64,000 nucleotides of DNA from an uncultured Actinomycetota bacterium (GCA_963790295.1 CAWBOE010000009.1:15810-79809), one strand, 5' to 3'; numbered from the stretch's first letter, positions 17,224-24,150 are shown. Program-made: numbers and translations. Notes: a model not told the origin generated them from the letters alone.

Positions 17224-17335
17224 CCGGATCGGCCGCGTTCCCGGCGGTGAGCTAGCGCACCGTTCAGCCCGAGACAACGGTGGCAGGGGTTCACCGCCTG
17301 CCCGAGGTCACTACCCTCGGTCATGGAGGTGGGGC

Positions 17336-20236
17336 ATGCACGTCGTGGTGCTGGGGCCGGTGACCGTGGGGGTCGCCGACGGCACGGCCAGCCCGGCAAG
17401 CGAGCCCGGGCGCTGGCGGCGGTGCTGGGGCTCTCGAGCGGCAAGGCGAAGGTCCACCGACCACCGAGGAGCTCGTTGCGCGGGTCTGGCCCACTGCACC
17501 GCCCGACCCGGTCGCTGCCCTCGACGGGCTGCGAGCCCAGCTCGGCCACAGCACGACCTTCGACACGGACGCGGCGCGGTTCGCCGAACTCACCCGGCGC
17601 GCGGACGAGGACGCGGCCGCGGGCAACCTCGCCGCAGCCGAGGCCACGCTCGGCGAGGCACTCGGCCTCTGGCGGGGCGAGGCGCTCGAGGACGTCCGCG
17701 ACACGACGTACCTCCAGCAACAGGCCCGGCGGCTCACCGAGATGCGGCTGACGGCGATCGAGGACCGGCTCGACCTTGCCGTCGGCCAGGACCGCGCCGG
17801 GGACTTGCTCGACGAGATCCGCGCCGACGTCGACGCCCACCCCACCCGCGAGCGGCTGTGGGCGCTGCTGATGAGCGCGCTGTACGCCAGCGGTCGCCGC
17901 GACGAGGCGATCGCGGTGTACGCCGAGGCACGAGCCACGCTCGCCGACGAGCTGGGCATCGAACCCGGGGAGGCGCTGCAGCAGCTGCAGGCCGGCATCC
18001 TGCACAACGGCCCCGACGGGCCGGCCGTAGGCACGACCGACCGCACGTCGGTTCAGCCACGCAAGCGTGCGCGGATCCCGGTGCTGGCCTCGACCACCTA
18101 CGGCCGGGACGAGCTACGGGCCGAGGTCGCCGCGCTGCTCACCGACGAGGACGTCCGGCTGGTCACGCTCACCGGGATCGGCGGCAGCGGCAAGTCGCGG
18201 GTCGCGACGCTGGTGGCCACCGCCGTGCAGGAACGCTTCGCCGACGTCGCCTACCTCCAGGTGACCGAGGCGGTCGACGCCGGGCAGCTGGTCGGAGAGA
18301 TCGCGCTGGCCCTGGACGGCTCGCTCACCGGCGACCCCGCCGACGCACTCGCCGCGCTGGATCCCGCGAAACCCGTCCTCGTCGTGCTCGACAACCTCGA
18401 GTCGCTCGACGCGGGCGCCGGCGTGGTACGGCGCCTCCTCGACGTGTCCGCTGCCCTCACTGTCCTGGTCACCAGCAGGCTGCCGCTGCGGACCGAGGGC
18501 GAGCACGAGCTGCCGGTCCCGGCGCTGGACGTGCCCGGTACGGCGGCCGACCTGGCCGCCGTCGCGGCCGCGGCCTCGGTGCAGCTGTTCGTCGACCGGG
18601 CGACCAGCGCCGAGCCGACCTTCCGGCTGGCGGGACACGAGCACGACGTGGCGGAGGTGTGCAACCTGCTCGACGGTCTGCCACTGGCCATCGAGCTCGC
18701 CGCGGCGCGGGTCAAGCTGCGCAGCCTCGACCGCATCATCGACGGGCTGCGCACCAACCTGGACCTCCTGGCCACCGGCTCGCAGGCGTTGCCCGAACGG
18801 CAGCGCGCGATGACGACGGCGATCCGCTGGAGCTATGACCGGCTGACGGCCGACGCCCAGCTGGTGTGCGACCGGCTGGCGCTGTTCGAGCGAGGTTTCA
18901 CCATCGAGGCGGTCGAGGCGGTGTGTCCCGACGTGGCCGAGGTGATCGAGTCCCTGGCGACGATCGTCGACGCCCGGCTAGTGCGGCAGATGCCGAGCCG
19001 CGCCGACGTCCGCTTCGTGGTGCTGGGCACGGTCCGGGCGTTCGCCCGCGAACGGCTGCTGGTCCGGCCCGACCTGATGCGCAGCCGCGAGCTCCTGGCC
19101 GCCCATCTGACCCAGCGCGCCGAGGAGGCCCGGACTCGCCTGTACGGCGCCGACGGCGTCCTGGCCGCCGCCCGCTTCGACGACGACGCGGCCGACATCG
19201 CGGCCGCGGTCGAGTGGGCCCTCGAGTCCGGGCGCCGAACCGTCGCCGTCGAGCTCATGCTGGCCAGCCTCGACTGCTGGGTGGCGACCGACCGCCACAA
19301 CGAGGCGCTCGGCCTCACCGTTCGGGTGCTCCAGGACGTCCCCCAGCAGGGCCCGGAGGCTGCCCGGCTGCTCGCTGCGGCGACCCTGCTGTCCCACCAG
19401 CTCAGCGACCACGACCAGGCCATCGACGTACGCCCGGCTGGCCCTGGAGCTGGCGGAGCGACACGGCGACCGGGTCTCGGCGGCGACGGCCCGTACCTTC
19501 CTCGGCGCGGAGCTGGTGTTCGCCGGTCAGTTGACGGACGGAGTGGCGCTCGCTGAGGCCGCGGCTGCGGAGGCGGAGGCGCTGGACCTCTACCCGCTGT
19601 CGACGCAGGCCCTCACCGTGCTGGCGATGGCGCTGGCGTTCAGCGGCGACTTCGAGGGCGAACGCCGCGCCCACGAGGCCAAGCTGGCGATGGTGCGAGC
19701 GAAGGGTGACGTTGCCCGTACCGCCGACGTCCTCAACACCCTGGCCGAGATCGCCCTGGACGACGGCGACGGCGAGGGCGCCCACGCCTTCGCCGTGGAG
19801 GCGCTCGGCGATCGCCGGGCAACGCTTGCCGACCGTGGCGCGCGACACCGGGATCACGTTGGCGCGCGCTGCCCTCCTTCGCGGCGATATCGCCGGGGCC
19901 GCGCACCGGCTGGCCGAGGCGCTCGACCAGAGCGACCGCCTGGGCCAGGCGTTCGCCGTCGCCCAGTGCCTGCGCGTGGGTGGCTGTCTGGCCGCGGCTC
20001 ACGGCGAGCCCGATAGAGCAGTCCGGCTGTTCGCCGCGGCGCAGAGCCTCTCGCCGTCACCCGGCGGCGGCGACGTACCTCCCGAACAGGACTTGGCGGC
20101 GACGCTGGTGGAGGCCCGGACCACGTTGGGGGAGCAGGCTGCCCGGCGCGCCTGGACTCTCGGCTCGGGGCTGCCGCTCGCCACGATCCGCGGGCAGCTG
20201 GCCGAGCTGCTCGGCCGGGTCAGCGCCCCTGCGTGA
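17336..20236 (+). CDS. AfsR/SARP-like regulator: BTAD, NB-ARC/STAND ATPase and TPR (several indels)
   Basis: LWRGEAL and HPTRERLWALLMSALYASGRRDEA (BTAD); GIGGSGKS P-loop; LVVLDNLE, LDGLPLAIELAAAR and AIRWSYDRL; frames join near 17400-17520, 19430 and 19815. Confidence 0.85.
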
Positions 20237-21167
20237 GGGCCTGGGTCGCCGCTTGCAGGTCCTTGGTCCACTCCGCGCCGAACAGGTCGCGACCCGACGG
20301 GTCGGCCGCCCACTCCAGCGACTCGGGCGTCACCGGCAACGGCTCGAACCGGTCGAGCACCTCCGGCCGCAGGGGGTCGGCGCCGCTCTTCTGCTCCAGG
20401 AAGTAGGCCAGCAGTCGCGCCCGGGCCCGCAGGCTGACGAGCAACGGCTCCACCGCCTGAGGGTCGTCACCGAGGTGGGCCTCGAGCTCGACGAGGTCCT
20501 TGCGCAGCTCGGCGATCGCCACCAGCACGCGCGTTCCGTTGCGGGACGTGGCGATCAGCGGCGTCCAGTCGCGCAGTGCCACCAGCAACCGCCGGATGCA
20601 CTGGTCGACGAGCTCTTTGCGCCACTCGGGGTCGCTGGTCTCGGGCAGGGTCGCCGGCCACGTGCGCGGGTCACCCGTGCGGTCGATGCCATCGCGATGC
20701 AGCCGCTCGCGACCCTGCCGCAGCCACTGGAGCGGCTTGCCGGGCGCCCAGGTCCAGCCGTGGGCGTCGGGCGGCTCGGGTGACGACAAGAAGGCGATCC
20801 CCACTTCGGCGTCGACGAGGTGGTCGACGATGCCGCCGAGACCCGCGGCCGTGACACTCTCGTCCAGCCGCTCCTGGGCCCGCAACTGGCCAGCCTCATA
20901 GGACAGCAGGCCGACGCCGAACAACAGCACGGTCTGGACGATGCCGCTCACCACTCCGTGCTCGTCCCAGAACTCGTTGATCGCCGGGGTCGGCCAGTCG
21001 GTCAGCGGCCAGTCGGTGGCGATCAGGAGCATCAGCAGGACCGCGCAGCCGCCGGCGAACAGGGCAGCGGCCCGCGCCGTGAGCTGCTGCTTGCGGGCCC
21101 GGTCGGCGAGACGCCAGACCAGTACGGCGATGCCGATCTCGACCAGCAGCAAGAGCACCGCCGTCAC
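20220..21167 (-). CDS. Hypothetical membrane protein (about 3 N-terminal TM plus helical soluble domain)
   Basis: Clean 315-aa ORF; its GTG overlaps the inferred TGA of the upstream RelA/SpoT gene. Confidence 0.75.
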   Translation of the reverse strand: MTAVLLLLVEIGIAVLVWRLADRARKQQLTARAAALFAGGCAVLLMLLIATDWPLTDWPTPAINEFWDEHGVVSGIVQTVLLFGVGLLSYEAGQLRAQERLDESVTAAGLGGIVDHLVDAEVGIAFLSSPEPPDAHGWTWAPGKPLQWLRQGRERLHRDGIDRTGDPRTWPATLPETSDPEWRKELVDQCIRRLLVALRDWTPLIATSRNGTRVLVAIAELRKDLVELEAHLGDDPQAVEPLLVSLRARARLLAYFLEQKSGADPLRPEVLDRFEPLPVTPESLEWAADPSGRDLFGAEWTKDLQAATQALTQGR

Positions 21168-22175
21168 GACGATCCCTCCAGGGCCTCACGTACGGCGGCG
21201 CACTCACGGTCCAGTGCCTCCGCAGCGGCCGGCTCGGTGACCTCGCGGCGGGCGAGGTATTCGGCGCCCGAGGGCGAGCCGCAGCGCGAGGTCGGCGACG
21301 TACGACGCCGTGGCCCACGGCCGCGTGGCGCGCACGGTCCGCGCCAGCTCCGGTCCTCGGAACACCCACTCGCCCACCAGCGTGGTCGCCTCGTCGGCGG
21401 TGGTGACCCCGAGGCCGGTGAGCACGGTCCTCAGCGCCGCCGCCCACTCGACCGGCTCGGCGCCGTTCTCGTCGCCGGCGAGCCGCTCGGCCCAGGCCCG
21501 CACCCCGGCCACGTCGAAGCCCCCCGCGTGGGCGTCGTCGAGCATGCCGGCGGTGTCGCCGTGGGCCAGCCGCACCGACATGAACTCCTGGTCGGCCAGC
21601 TCGAGCAGCCCCGCCAGCGCGATCAACCGGCGGCGCACCTGGTCGGTGGGCGCCCGCTCGCCCTTGTACATCAGGTCGTGCTGCAGTGCCGCCCACGCGT
21701 GCTGGAGGATCGACCGGACCTGCAGCTCAATGACCTGGTCGGACACGCCGAGCTCTTCGCGCTGCTCCTCGCGGAACCTAACCAGGAAGTGCAGGCTCTG
21801 GTAGCCGGGTACGTCCAGCAGGGAGTCCGCGCGCTGGTCGGACATCTCCTCGACGACGTACAGCCGCTGCACCAGCCGCGCGACCGGCGCCACGTCGGCG
21901 CTGAGCGGGACGAGCACCCGCGCACCGACGAAGTCGGTCAGCTCGGCGGCGGGGTCGGCGTACTTGAAGCCACCGCGGCCGTCGGACTTGGTCGCCTTGT
22001 CGAGGAAGCTGTCGAGCGACTTGGTGCGCGTCTCCAGCCGAGCGTCATCGAGATGGGCGGCGCGCAGCGCGCTGCCGAGGTGTTCGAGGAAGGCTGCCTC
22101 GAGGGCCTGGAACTCTCCGACGTGCTGCTCGAACCAGGCCCGCAGCTCCTGGCGCCGCGCCTCGCGGGTGGTCAT
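21164..22175 (-). CDS. RelA/SpoT-domain small alarmone synthetase-like protein with C-terminal extension
   Basis: RTKSLDSFLDK, LTDFVGARV, GYQSLHFLV and ELQVRSILQHAWAALQHDLMYK; removing 1 nt near 21268 extends the frame (LGAEYLARREVTEPAAAEALDRE...) to TGA at 21164. Confidence 0.88.
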
Positions 22176-22187
22176 CGGCTCGCCACC

Positions 22188-22647
22188 TCAACCCGCCCCG
22201 AGCTCGTCGGTCGACGACGCGGACCGCAGCAGGTCGAGGTCGACGAACCGCTGGAACATCGTCCACGCGGCGTCGCCGTCGTGGGCGACCGGCTCGAACG
22301 ACGCCGTGTCGGGGTCGTCGGGCAGTGAGAGCAGCGCGACCGTGACCCGCGGCGTGGTGAGCCCGTCGTGCAGCGCCGCGGCCAGGACCTCGCCGACGCG
22401 GCGTTCGACAGGGTCGGCACTCAGCGCCCGGTCAGCGGCGTCCTCGCTCGGTCAGCGACACCGAGGCGACGACCTCGCGGATGCGTGGCGCCAGTCCCTG
22501 CACCTGACGTCCGGAGTAGAACCCCAGCCGCGCGGCGTCGCGGAAGCGGCGCTTCTCCGGGCCGACCCAGGCACCGTTGGCGAGGTAGAACGGCCACGCG
22601 CCTGCCCCGGCGACCACGCACACGCGCTCACTCGTTGCCGGAGCCAT
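22188..22647 (-). CDS. Hypothetical protein of about 152 aa (1-nt indel near 22447)
   Basis: RBS GGGAGG before ATG 22647; MAPATSERVCVVAGAGAWPFY...GFYSGRQVQGLAPRI joins ...LSLPDDPDT...AWTMFQRFVDLDLLRSA; stop lies 12 nt before the SAS start. Confidence 0.7.
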
Positions 22648-22740
22648 CCACCCACCTCCCGGCGCTCACCGTAGTGCTCTCGACGCCCGGGCTCTATCGT
22701 GCGAGGGGCCAGTTCGTCACCGTGTCGTGAGAGGCCCCGG

Positions 22741-24150
22741 ATGACTCGATCGCGCCTGTCCGCCCTGCTCGTCGCCCTCCTGCTGAGTGCAGGCGCGCTG
22801 GCCGCGGTCCCGGGGCCTGCGGCTGGGTCATCGGCTGGGTCATCGGCTGCGTCATCGGCTGGGTCCTCGGGTGCATCGGCCGCCCCGGAATGCCGGTGGG
22901 GTGCGCGCGGCCTGGTCGAGAACCGCTGGCTCGGCGGCGCCGGCAGCTGGTCGGATGTCACGAAGTGGTCGCGCGGCGTCGTGCCCGGCATCGCCGCCCG
23001 CGACTACGCCTGCATCCCCCAGGGCTCCGACGTCGTGGTCGACACGCAGACGCTGCGCGTCGACCTCGACGTGCTCGAGCTCGGCCTGGGGTCGCGGCTC
23101 ACCCTGCAGCCCGGCACGGCGATGTACGTCTGGGGCGACCAGGACGCCGTTCGCTCGATCACCAAACGTGACTCCGTCCTCGAGGTCGACGGCGCGACCC
23201 TGGGCGGCGGCGGCCGGCTGCACGTGATCGGCACCCTGAGCGTCCACCGGTCGTCCAGCGGCGCTCCCGCCACCTTGACCACCCACCCCGAGTCGTCGGC
23301 GTACTCCGGGCCGCCCGGGATCCTGGAGATCGGGGACGAGGGAACTCTTGACCTACGCGGCAGCGGCAGCGTCCGGCTTGCCACGCAGTACATCGTCGAC
23401 GTCCACGGCCGGGCGCGCCTGCGCGGCGACGCGGGACTGGTGGCCGACCACGGCACCACGTTCCTGCTCCAGAAGCACTACTTCGGCGGAGGCGTCGGAC
23501 GGCTGGTCCTGCTCAACGACCACGGTTTCGCCGAGGGCGACGCCGCCGGCGTCAAGGAGCTGGCGACGTTCGTGAATCGCGGCCGCATCGTCAAGCGCGA
23601 GTCGACGGGCACCAGCCGCATCGAGGCCCTGTATGTCGAGCGCGACGGCGAGGTCAGGAAGGTGTCGGGAGAGATCGAGCTGCCGCCGCCGCTGCCGCTG
23701 GAGCCGCCGGCGACCGACACGTGCGGCGACCCGGCGTCCTGCAACCCCCTGCAGAGCGCCTCGCTGCGGCCGCCCGACGCCGACGTCGACGGCATCGAGG
23801 ACCTGTTCGTCGAGCCGCTCGACGGCGAGAGCGTGACGGGCGCGATCGGGGTCCCGATGAAGGTGCACGCCCTGGGGCTCGATGCGAGCATCGCCGACCC
23901 GGCGGTCATCCGGCTGCGCTACGACCTGCAGCTTTTCGACCTGGCTGGCATCCCGCCCAACGCGACCGAGCTCGTGGTCGGCCACGCCGACGGTCCTGAC
24001 GAGAAGTACGTCGACATCCCGTGCCTGTGCCGGCAGGGGCCTGCCGCTGGGCGCCACGGCCTGCCTCGACGTCCGCGCGAGCACAAGGACGGTGGCGATC
24101 TCGTGCTGGTGGTGCGCACGACCGACACGAGCCGCTGGATCGTCAGGTAG
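22741..24150 (+). CDS. Secreted hypothetical protein, beta-rich
   Basis: Signal peptide MTRSRLSALLVALLLSAGALAA; WLGGAGSWSDVTKWSRGVVP motif; Cys pairs; probable indels near 24025-24080. Confidence 0.65.
   Translation: MTRSRLSALLVALLLSAGALAAVPGPAAGSSAGSSAASSAGSSGASAAPECRWGARGLVENRWLGGAGSWSDVTKWSRGVVPGIAARDYACIPQGSDVVVDTQTLRVDLDVLELGLGSRLTLQPGTAMYVWGDQDAVRSITKRDSVLEVDGATLGGGGRLHVIGTLSVHRSSSGAPATLTTHPESSAYSGPPGILEIGDEGTLDLRGSGSVRLATQYIVDVHGRARLRGDAGLVADHGTTFLLQKHYFGGGVGRLVLLNDHGFAEGDAAGVKELATFVNRGRIVKRESTGTSRIEALYVERDGEVRKVSGEIELPPPLPLEPPATDTCGDPASCNPLQSASLRPPDADVDGIEDLFVEPLDGESVTGAIGVPMKVHALGLDASIADPAVIRLRYDLQLFDLAGIPPNATELVVGHADGPDEKYVDIPCLCRQGPAAGRHGLPRRPREHKDGGDLVLVVRTTDTSRWIVR
22821..22868 (+). 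repeat. 4 x 12-bp tandem repeat encoding an AGSS linker
   Basis: GGCTGGGTCATC x2, GGCTGCGTCATC, GGCTGGGTCCTC. Confidence 0.85.

What the first reader, a model, noticed from the sequence alone, without database searches (positions are those of the whole stretch)
20220..22647. Three-gene operon: unknown small protein, alarmone synthetase and novel membrane protein (candidate nucleotide-signalling defence or toxin module)
Seen: three co-directional, tightly coupled minus-strand genes (12-nt gap, then a GTGA overlap once a single indel is corrected). They sit in an accessory spot between a SARP/STAND regulator and an orphan secreted protein. The middle gene keeps all RelA/SpoT synthetase motifs, and no HD hydrolase is present. 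Known: small alarmone synthetases include toxSAS enzymes ((pp)pApp synthesis or tRNA pyrophosphorylation) in toxin-antitoxin pairs and anti-phage systems such as CapRel. CBASS and Pycsar pair a nucleotide synthetase with a TM effector. Inference: this could be a sensor or antitoxin, a second-messenger synthetase and a TM effector. I do not recognise this architecture as a described system.
Basis: partly seen in the sequence, partly recalled or inferred. Interest (0 to 1): 0.82.

Follow-up and report, generated by a model that had tools for sequence, protein, structure and literature searches.

The report
Base-reader-gated alarmone synthetase with membrane partner
In a group of Nocardioides-type bacteria, three tightly coupled genes encode a small protein with a predicted modified-base-reading fold, a stress-nucleotide (alarmone) synthetase that it is predicted to bind, and a membrane protein whose relatives travel with likely alarmone-destroying enzymes; together they likely form an undescribed sensor-to-alarmone-to-membrane switch against phage.

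Summary
The three-gene operon is real. The assembly has two one-base insertions (in gene 1 and in the synthetase); relatives and short-read contigs lack both.

Gene 1 is a stand-alone domain with a predicted PUA-superfamily (ASCH/EVE/YTH-like) fold. Elsewhere it is fused to nuclease-like, TIR, Abi/HEPN and methylase domains. Gene 2 is a small alarmone synthetase of its own clade with an intact active site. A co-fold docks gene 1 on its C-terminal domain (0.86, best control 0.00). Gene 3 has three membrane helices and a cytosolic bundle. Outside this operon its relatives are fused to, or overlap, HD-domain hydrolases of two kinds, once in a defence island.

The trio stays together down to about 45% identity, but reader and membrane genes lie together in only 12 of 400 sampled genus genomes, always at one chromosomal site.

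Best reading (0.42): modified-base sensor, then alarmone, then membrane effector, as phage defence. Rivals: reader as antitoxin of a toxic synthetase, or domesticated stress signalling. Fixed position and no phage or plasmid copies argue against defence. Closest described systems are PANGU and Metis; it belongs to neither, and I found no paper on it.

The parts
22188..22647 (-). Gene 1: stand-alone PUA-superfamily (ASCH/EVE/YTH-like) domain, about 150 aa; predicted sensor and partner of the synthetase; interrupted in this assembly by one extra base
   Evidence: intact in relatives; 426 relatives, fusions; pLDDT 96.4; fold
22655..22659 (-). GGAGG ribosome-binding site upstream of gene 1
   Evidence: sequence
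22446..22450 (-). One extra base in gene 1, likely an assembly error
22368..22452 (-). Approximate position of the helical hairpin of gene 1 (residues 62-89 of the L018 protein) predicted to contact the synthetase
21164..22175 (-). Gene 2: small alarmone synthetase, about 337 aa, with a C-terminal helical domain; interrupted near its end in this assembly by one extra base
21657..22031 (-). RelA_SpoT synthetase domain (residues 49-173) with R50, K52, S56, K60, D81, G84, R86, Y125, H129, E150, Q152, R154
21210..21455 (-). Approximate position of the synthetase C-terminal region predicted to bind the gene 1 protein (L018 residues 242-322)
21265..21270 (-). One extra base in gene 2, likely an assembly error
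20220..21167 (-). Gene 3: 315-aa membrane protein of no known family, with three N-terminal hydrophobic helices and a cytosolic helical bundle; start overlaps the synthetase stop (GTGA)
20901..21161 (-). Three predicted membrane helices (residues 3-21, 33-51, 71-89)
   Evidence: (three segments in 33 of 41 homologues)

Best explanation
The operon likely works as a three-step alarmone switch: the gene 1 protein, which has a predicted PUA-type base-reading fold, is predicted to sit on the C-terminal domain of the intact-looking alarmone synthetase and would switch it on when it binds a likely phage-linked modified base or nucleotide, and the alarmone would then act on the co-encoded membrane protein, likely halting the infected cell. 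Shown: gene order, tight coupling, co-conservation, catalytic residues, hydrophobic helices, and the fusion and neighbourhood patterns of relatives. Inferred: the ligand, activation rather than inhibition, the nucleotide product, the membrane protein as alarmone receptor and effector (about 0.4), and phage defence as purpose (about 0.55).
For: (1) Reader: the AlphaFold2 model has pLDDT 96.4. Its best matches are ASCH (Z 7.8, rmsd 3.6, 119 aligned; Foldseek E 5e-3), YTH domains, the VcaM4I restriction enzyme, McrB N-terminal domains, PD-T4-3 and THYN1; 27 of the top 28 rows are PUA-like by title or my recall. Seven positions are aromatic in at least 93% of 76 sequences. Of 150 listed relatives, 34 share an unclassified N-terminal domain with a PD-(D/E)XK-like motif; others carry TIR, GIY-YIG/PD-T4-3, N6-methylase, HEPN and Abi_2 domains. 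One Abi fusion lies beside two Thoeris ThsB genes. (2) Complex: score 0.86 against best control 0.00; 116 of 157 solved and 2 of 215 mismatched pairs reach the mark; runs agree in at least 94% of contacts; partner pLDDT 88 (intact L018 proteins, my alignments). Hairpin positions 67, 71 and 85 are apolar in 9 of 9 operon-type readers against 40%, 39% and 9% of 67 others. Synthetase W245 and Y307 are invariant and P287 and D296 nearly so in 47 sequences. (3) Synthetase: catalytic residues invariant or nearly so in 47 sequences; the 4 operon genomes tested also have a long Rel and a second, RelZ-like synthetase, so it is an extra enzyme. (4) Membrane protein: 4 of 95 homologues end in a fused HD domain. 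In G520 the gene overlaps a separate HD_4 gene (69.4 bits, cut-off 27.2) of another kind, next to two GmrSD genes, a type IIG restriction-modification gene and helicases. Pairing once with a synthetase and twice with hydrolases fits a shared small molecule better than a shared protein surface. (5) Linkage: trio in 12 of 12 loci from 11 genomes and at 45-60% identity in G684, G486 and G551; 29 of 94 membrane-protein hits share an exact contig length with one of 120 listed synthetase hits (null mean 0.9, maximum 6).
Against: The operon sits at one site, between a SARP/STAND gene and a secreted-protein gene, with no known defence gene beside it. All 5 of 300 genomes with a close SARP orthologue (67% or more) carry it, and I found no empty site. 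dN/dS is 0.22-0.26, like folP (0.25) and LacI (0.16), so there is no sign of an arms race. The genomes are kin, so co-occurrence counts are not independent. PADLOC has no hit for genes 1 or 3 and only a partial one for the synthetase domain. The fold match is moderate (Z under 8), and ASCH-type domains also act in RNA metabolism. The HD partners were not shown to hydrolyse alarmones; three of four fused ones score below Pfam cut-offs. A hydrolase partner fits an antitoxin role for the membrane protein equally well.
Confidence: 0.42

Rival explanations
1. Toxin-antitoxin module: the synthetase itself is the toxin ((pp)pApp synthesis or tRNA pyrophosphorylation). The gene 1 protein is a bound antitoxin released on a trigger, and the membrane protein is a second antitoxin or accessory, as in the tricistronic FaRel locus.
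For: Conserved, overlapping tricistronic layout, which 10.1101/575399 (passages) reports as an indicator of toxicity. Predicted tight gene 1-synthetase complex. Membrane protein fused to or beside HD hydrolases; the FaRel antitoxin ATfaRel is such a hydrolase.
Against: The predicted contact is on the C-terminal domain, whereas described antitoxins block the donor or acceptor site (PMC11782079 passages). The nearest characterised relatives by sequence are guanosine-type synthetases: RelZ-like proteins at 41% over the catalytic domain and RelP/RelQ structures. No close copy was found in phage or plasmid records.
Confidence: 0.25
2. Domesticated stress signalling, not defence: the reader detects a cellular modified or damaged nucleic acid and tunes a non-toxic (pp)pGpp synthetase, much as RelZ couples an RNase H-type domain to alarmone synthesis. 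The membrane protein is a receptor or anchor.
For: One fixed site with retention across species whose synthetases are 45-90% identical; purifying selection like neighbours; no GC anomaly; kinship of the catalytic domain and, weakly, the C-terminal domain to stand-alone RelZ-like proteins; RelZ described as a replication-stress sensor (PMC7591505 passages).
Against: The host clade already has Rel and a RelZ-like enzyme. The operon is found in about 3% of genus genomes searched.
Confidence: 0.25
3. Only the reader and synthetase form a unit; the membrane-protein gene is a co-inherited passenger.
For: The membrane-protein gene occurs without an operon-type synthetase in G520 and G361 and in L028; all full trios descend from one locus.
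Against: Start-stop overlap or a gap of a few bases in the close loci; linkage kept at 45-55% identity; a decayed synthetase-plus-membrane remnant in a different, defence-like context (G621); hydrolase partners elsewhere.
Confidence: 0.08

Closest known systems
Type I PANGU (Pag1A nucleoid-protein sensor + GRel synthetase Pag1B, sometimes with a SLATT membrane protein); 10.64898/2026.04.06.716658, abstract, passages and section 11 read
   Same: A separate nucleic-acid-binding sensor binds a synthetase that has an extra C-terminal domain; some loci add a membrane protein as third gene.
   Different: The sensor here has a PUA-like fold, not a YejK-like nucleoid protein. The membrane protein has no SLATT hit. 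GRel membership was not testable. PANGU is spread over several phyla; this operon is confined to one lineage in my searches.
Metis / PUA-Cal-HAD (10.1101/2025.11.05.686725, abstract, sections 8-9 and passages; 10.64898/2026.01.15.699771, section 5 and passages)
   Same: A PUA-like domain senses a modified nucleotide. Type II pairs a three-helix membrane effector (MisC) with a phosphatase that clears the trigger, which parallels the membrane protein plus HD hydrolase pairs seen here.
   Different: The main texts I searched or read list no RelA/SpoT partner. Homology to MisA's PUA domain or to MisC could not be tested.
toxSAS toxin-antitoxin modules (FaRel, FaRel2, PhRel, PhRel2, CapRel); 10.1101/575399 and PMC11782079, passages
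   Same: Synthetase-only enzyme in a conserved, overlapping operon; same donor-site residues; hydrolase association.
   Different: Partners are a PUA-like domain and a new membrane family; predicted docking is on a C-terminal domain; toxicity unknown; no close copy in the phage records searched.
RelZ-type actinobacterial synthetases (DUF429-RelA_SpoT proteins; PMC7591505, passages; equating DUF429 with RelZ's RNase HII domain is my recall)
   Same: 41% identity over the catalytic domain; a nucleic-acid-handling partner domain coupled to a synthetase.
   Different: No DUF429 domain; separate branch of the tree; coexists with a RelZ-like gene in the same genomes.
PUA-domain modification-dependent restriction enzymes (VcaM4I, TspA15I, YenY4I, PD-T4-3; PMC6765204 and PMC7641849, passages)
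   Same: Same fold class; relatives of gene 1 are fused to nuclease-like domains.
   Different: Gene 1 has no nuclease, matches no Pfam family, and has gained an apolar hairpin face predicted to bind the synthetase.
CBASS / Pycsar (recalled)
   Same: Logic of nucleotide synthetase plus membrane effector.
   Different: The enzyme is a RelA/SpoT synthetase, not a CD-NTase or pyrimidine cyclase; no known messenger-binding domain was detected in the membrane protein.

Membership tests
Small alarmone synthetase (RSH, synthetase only) | RelA_SpoT domain above the Pfam cut-off | tested here: met
   54.1 bits against 27
Small alarmone synthetase (RSH, synthetase only) | Catalytic and donor-site residues intact | tested here: met
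   invariant or nearly so in 47 sequences; they match the FaRel2 residue types listed in PMC11782079
Small alarmone synthetase (RSH, synthetase only) | No HD hydrolase domain | tested here: met
Small alarmone synthetase (RSH, synthetase only) | Pyrophosphate-transfer activity and product | not testable with these tools
   needs an assay
PUA superfamily (ASCH/EVE/YTH-like) | PUA-like barrel fold | tested here: met
   27 of top 28 rows PUA-like by title or recall; best Z 7.8, rmsd 3.6, 119 aligned; Foldseek E 5e-3; moderate scores
PUA superfamily (ASCH/EVE/YTH-like) | Aromatic pocket that binds a modified base | tested here: inconclusive
   conserved aromatics at 14, 17, 23, 39, 40, 124, 130; their place in a pocket and any ligand not checked
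RelZ-type dual-domain synthetase | N-terminal DUF429 / RNase H-type domain | tested here: not met
   present in L007, absent here; separate branch
toxSAS toxin-antitoxin module | Conserved, overlapping bi- or tricistronic operon | tested here: met
toxSAS toxin-antitoxin module | Toxicity neutralised by a neighbour | not testable with these tools
   needs a toxicity-neutralisation assay
toxSAS toxin-antitoxin module | Member of the FaRel, FaRel2, PhRel, PhRel2 or CapRel subfamily | not testable with these tools
   subfamily HMMs not available; PDB sequence hits were RelP/RelQ types only
Type I PANGU | YejK-like nucleoid-associated sensor | tested here: not met
   148-aa protein with a confident PUA-like model; no NCBIfam or PADLOC hit for the intact protein and no Pfam hit for its closest relatives
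Type I PANGU | GRel-subfamily synthetase with DNA-mimicking C-terminal domain | not testable with these tools
   no GRel sequence or model at hand
Type I PANGU | Optional SLATT membrane protein | tested here: inconclusive
   no SLATT-named Pfam hit at E 0.1 or 0.05
Metis / PUA-Cal-HAD | PUA domain fused to a calcineurin-like effector | tested here: not met
   stand-alone 148-150 aa gene in the intact relatives
Metis / PUA-Cal-HAD | HAD phosphatase (MisB) in the operon | tested here: not met
   no room for a further gene between the trio and its SARP and secreted flanks
Metis / PUA-Cal-HAD | MisC-type three-helix membrane effector | tested here: inconclusive
   three helices predicted; no MisC sequence available for comparison
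Metis / PUA-Cal-HAD | Activation by m6dAMP | not testable with these tools
   needs binding or activity assay
CBASS / Pycsar | CD-NTase or pyrimidine cyclase | tested here: not met
   enzyme is RelA_SpoT
CBASS / Pycsar | Membrane effector with a known messenger-binding domain | tested here: inconclusive
   only generic helical-bundle matches; one homologue has a weak Cap15_TM hit below cut-off, E 0.023

The most novel reading that the evidence does not exclude
An immune pathway that uses an alarmone as a dedicated second messenger: a stand-alone modified-base reader turns on its own RelA/SpoT synthetase, and the product opens a new family of alarmone-gated membrane effectors. Where that effector occurs with an HD hydrolase instead, it would guard against alarmone surges directly, with the hydrolase setting the threshold.
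Probability: 0.3. Interest if true: 0.9.

Novelty: new variant of a known kind. Interest (0 to 1): 0.72.

Why it matters
It would be the first case I could find of a PUA-type modified-base reader wired directly to an alarmone synthetase, joining two recently described defence principles (modified-nucleotide sensing as in Metis; sensor-activated synthetases as in PANGU). It defines a membrane protein family that keeps company with both alarmone makers and likely alarmone breakers, a strong candidate for a membrane-bound alarmone receptor. It bears on the open question of why bacteria carry extra small synthetases, and gives a residue-level, testable interface. It also exposes an unclassified reader family whose nuclease-like fusions are candidate modification-dependent restriction enzymes.

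Tried and rejected
Family libraries: no hit for gene 1 or gene 3 above a cut-off in Pfam, PADLOC, NCBIfam or PHROGs; the PADLOC PDC-S33 hit covers only the catalytic domain and was not taken as membership. PDB sequence search with the gene 1 alignment: one chance hit. Membrane-protein fold: no specific match in PDB (Foldseek best E 1.0; VIA best Z 9.8 to designed four-helix bundles) or among viral models (best E 0.09); I take this only as 'helical bundle'. ESM Atlas: P0028 gave unnamed clusters and one low-score lead (MJ1433, 0.79), not followed; no Atlas result was obtained for gene 1 or the synthetase. A search for longer forms of gene 1 by shared words gave 4 hits that look like frameshift read-throughs. 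Mobile copies: membrane protein not found in viral contigs or plasmids; gene 1 had one weak plasmid hit; the synthetase had only 25-38% partial hits in phages and plasmids. Membrane-protein alignment: 1 of 400 in the family draw, 0 of 400 in the phylum draw; two weak genus hits (G712, G772; E about 1e-4) were dropped from the co-occurrence count. Metagenome scan for the HD-fused form gave one fragment of the gene and four HD-only matches. No empty insertion site was found. No sigma-70-type promoter or terminator. No RNA holder listed. The tree is the quick version, unfinished, with long-branch warnings; I use it only to show separation from the RelZ-like group. Real pseudogenisation of genes 1 and 2 was considered and rejected. 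Literature: no paper holds both 'PUA' and 'alarmone synthetase' or 'ASCH', 'RelA SpoT' and 'conflict systems'; six wider searches listed nothing on this trio. Earlier scan findings: nothing by sequence, place or specific words; eight shown by general words concerned other systems.
Full report
OBSERVATION. The operon is there. On the minus strand, gene 1 (22647-22188) is followed after 12 nt by the synthetase (22175-21164), whose stop overlaps the start of the membrane-protein gene (21167-20220) in GTGA. The assembly (G000, 63% complete) has two one-base insertions, near 22448 and near 21267. Six of 6 aligned relatives lack each, near-identical short-read contigs lack them, and similar insertions occur in neighbouring genes. 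I therefore treat them as assembly errors and used intact relatives, mainly L018, for modelling. Named homologues place the window among Nocardioides.

DISTRIBUTION. All three genes, in the same order and between the same SARP/STAND and secreted-protein genes, occur in 12 of 12 loci found with gene 3 (11 genomes), and at 45-60% identity in G684, G486 and G551. In one draw of 400 genus genomes, gene 3 matched 16 (14 after dropping two weak hits) and gene 1 matched 13; 12 have both, about 1 kb apart on one strand. The family draw gave 1 of 400 and the phylum draw 0 of 400. Among metagenomic proteins, 29 of 94 gene 3 hits share an exact contig length with one of the 120 listed synthetase hits (jittered null mean 0.9, maximum 6), including pairs where gene 3 is 46-55% identical; this is indirect evidence. 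Searching with the flanking SARP gene instead, all 5 of 300 genomes with a close orthologue carry the trio; eight more distant SARP loci lack it and lie in other contexts. So the operon is rare in the genus and fixed within a clade. These genomes are kin and count as roughly one event. dN/dS over five loci is 0.22, 0.26 and 0.22 for the three genes, against 0.16 for LacI, 0.25 for folP and 0.36 for SARP.

GENE 1. It has no family hit, but a profile search found 426 relatives. Of the 150 listed, 57 are 250 aa or longer and 34 share an unclassified N-terminal domain with a PD-(D/E)XK-like motif, judged by eye and pattern. Of 76 scanned in Pfam, five carry TIR_2 and single ones GIY-YIG, N6-methylase, HEPN, DUF6508, LGFP or TrkA_N; most had no hit. 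The GIY-YIG fusion matches PD-T4-3 at E 4e-43. Abi_2 fusions occur, one beside two ThsB genes in G585. The model (pLDDT 96.4) matches ASCH, YTH, VcaM4I, McrB N-terminal domains, PD-T4-3 and THYN1; best Z 7.8, rmsd 3.6, 119 residues. The scores are moderate, but the list is consistent. PUA-superfamily domains are known readers of modified bases in restriction enzymes (PMC6765204, PMC7641849; passages) and of m6dAMP in Metis and PUA-Cal-HAD. The ligand here is unknown.

GENE 2. All catalytic residues are invariant or nearly so in 47 sequences. The homologues form a group with a clear score gap from other synthetases and branch apart from DUF429-fused RelZ-like proteins in a quick tree, although they share 41% identity over the catalytic domain. 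Four of 4 operon genomes tested also encode a long Rel and a RelZ-like protein, and the 3 of these tested have no separate HD_4 hydrolase gene. Substrate specificity cannot be read from these data.

GENE 1-GENE 2 COMPLEX. The co-fold scored 0.86 against a best control of 0.00. The mark is reached by 116 of 157 solved and 2 of 215 mismatched pairs (roughly, as my own alignments were used); runs agree in at least 94% of contacts; partner pLDDT 88. This supports binding but does not show it. I found no solved look-alike by sequence. Interface positions are better conserved than the rest of that domain (mean top-residue frequency 0.59 against 0.46). Three hairpin positions are apolar in 9 of 9 operon-type readers and mostly not in 67 others; four of those nine were assigned by score alone, their context unseen.

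GENE 3. Three hydrophobic segments are predicted in 33 of 41 homologues; six showed two and two fragments none. A basic first loop suggests that the C-terminal bundle is cytosolic (inference). The model (pLDDT 87.7) matches only generic helical bundles. Four of 95 homologues end in an HD domain; P0085 matches the N-terminal part of the RelA/SpoT family model at E 6e-9, though three of the four score below Pfam cut-offs. In G520 (100% complete, no gene 1 and no operon-type synthetase) gene 3 overlaps an HD_4 gene in an island with two GmrSD genes, a type IIG enzyme, helicases and an ADP-ribosylglycohydrolase. That HD protein aligns with the fused ones over only 45-56 residues, so the link to hydrolases probably arose twice. 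In G361 a gene of the fused type is cut by the contig end and no synthetase match was found. G621 has a decayed synthetase end plus gene 3 beside NERD-helicase and HNH genes.

MECHANISM. The most economical reading is reader, then synthetase, then membrane protein. A reader without its own effector must act through a partner, and the model supplies one. A membrane family that pairs with one synthetase and two unrelated hydrolases is most simply linked to them by the alarmone. Defence is inferred from the company these families keep elsewhere. Against it stand the fixed site, housekeeping-like selection and absence from the mobile elements searched. I give 0.42 to the full chain, 0.25 to a toxin-antitoxin reading with gene 1 as antitoxin, 0.25 to domesticated stress signalling and 0.08 to gene 3 as passenger.

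COMPARISON AND NOVELTY. It would work most like type I PANGU, where a separate sensor activates a synthetase and some loci add a SLATT membrane protein (10.64898/2026.04.06.716658; abstract, passages, section 11), and like Metis, where a modified nucleotide triggers a PUA-fused enzyme or a three-helix membrane effector kept in check by a phosphatase (10.1101/2025.11.05.686725; abstract, sections 8-9, passages). It fails defining features of both. The PUA-Cal-HAD survey lists HEPN, DrHyd, TIR, HNH and McrB fusions, and its main text has no 'ppGpp' or 'alarmone' (10.64898/2026.01.15.699771); its family may or may not be that of gene 1. I read no supplements; neighbourhood tables of these preprints and of the toxSAS survey (10.1101/575399; passages) could contain this operon. 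Eight literature searches found no description. Verdict: a new variant of sensor-gated alarmone modules, with two unclassified protein families; interest 0.72.

Noticed in passing
P0121, P0127, P0132, P0140, P0144 and others: 34 of 150 listed relatives of gene 1 share an N-terminal domain with a PD-(D/E)XK-like motif; those scanned had no Pfam or PADLOC hit. Candidate new family of modification-dependent restriction enzymes.
   Followed up: partly
L100:2633-10113 (G585): Abi_2 (HEPN-type) domain fused to the gene 1 domain, beside two ThsB TIR genes, a ThsC-like HIT gene and a radical SAM gene (QueE-like by recall).
   Followed up: partly
L057:1517-9319 and L101 (G520): Defence island: type IIG restriction-modification gene, large DEAD helicase, UvrD helicase, two GmrSD genes, ADP-ribosylglycohydrolase-phosphatase fusion, then the membrane protein overlapping an HD_4 gene. 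The last pair is a candidate two-gene system in its own right.
   Followed up: partly
P0107, P0113: The gene 1 domain joined to a uracil-DNA-glycosylase-like domain (P0107: Pfam UDG E 0.0014, below cut-off; P0113 by eye).
   Followed up: no
window 17323-20236 and 22741-24150; L126-L133: SARP/STAND regulator genes lie beside homologues of the secreted protein at 8 of 8 other loci without the trio, in varied orientations; a recurring regulator-secreted protein pair.
   Followed up: partly
window, e.g. 14012, 19421, 19811, 24604, 25895, 26318, 32017, 32235: Many single-base insertions relative to close relatives split ordinary genes; broken genes in this assembly should be distrusted.
   Followed up: yes
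L064:657-2203 (G621): Decayed synthetase end plus membrane-protein gene at a contig start, followed by NERD-helicase, HNH, NrtR and ARPP-1 genes.
   Followed up: partly
L080:3944-4963 (prophage prophi68-1, gene 42): Stand-alone synthetase of about 340 aa, 33% identical over the catalytic half, on the strand opposite to its neighbours and next to a holin gene.
   Followed up: no
L002-L008 and L007, L009-L015: Stand-alone synthetases of about 340 aa in family f3 and DUF429-fused synthetases of about 560-640 aa in many genus genomes; the f3 proteins share a weakly similar C-terminal domain.
   Followed up: partly
window 22815-22870: Short near-repeats encoding an Ala/Gly/Ser linker after the signal peptide of the secreted protein (seen by eye).
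   Followed up: no
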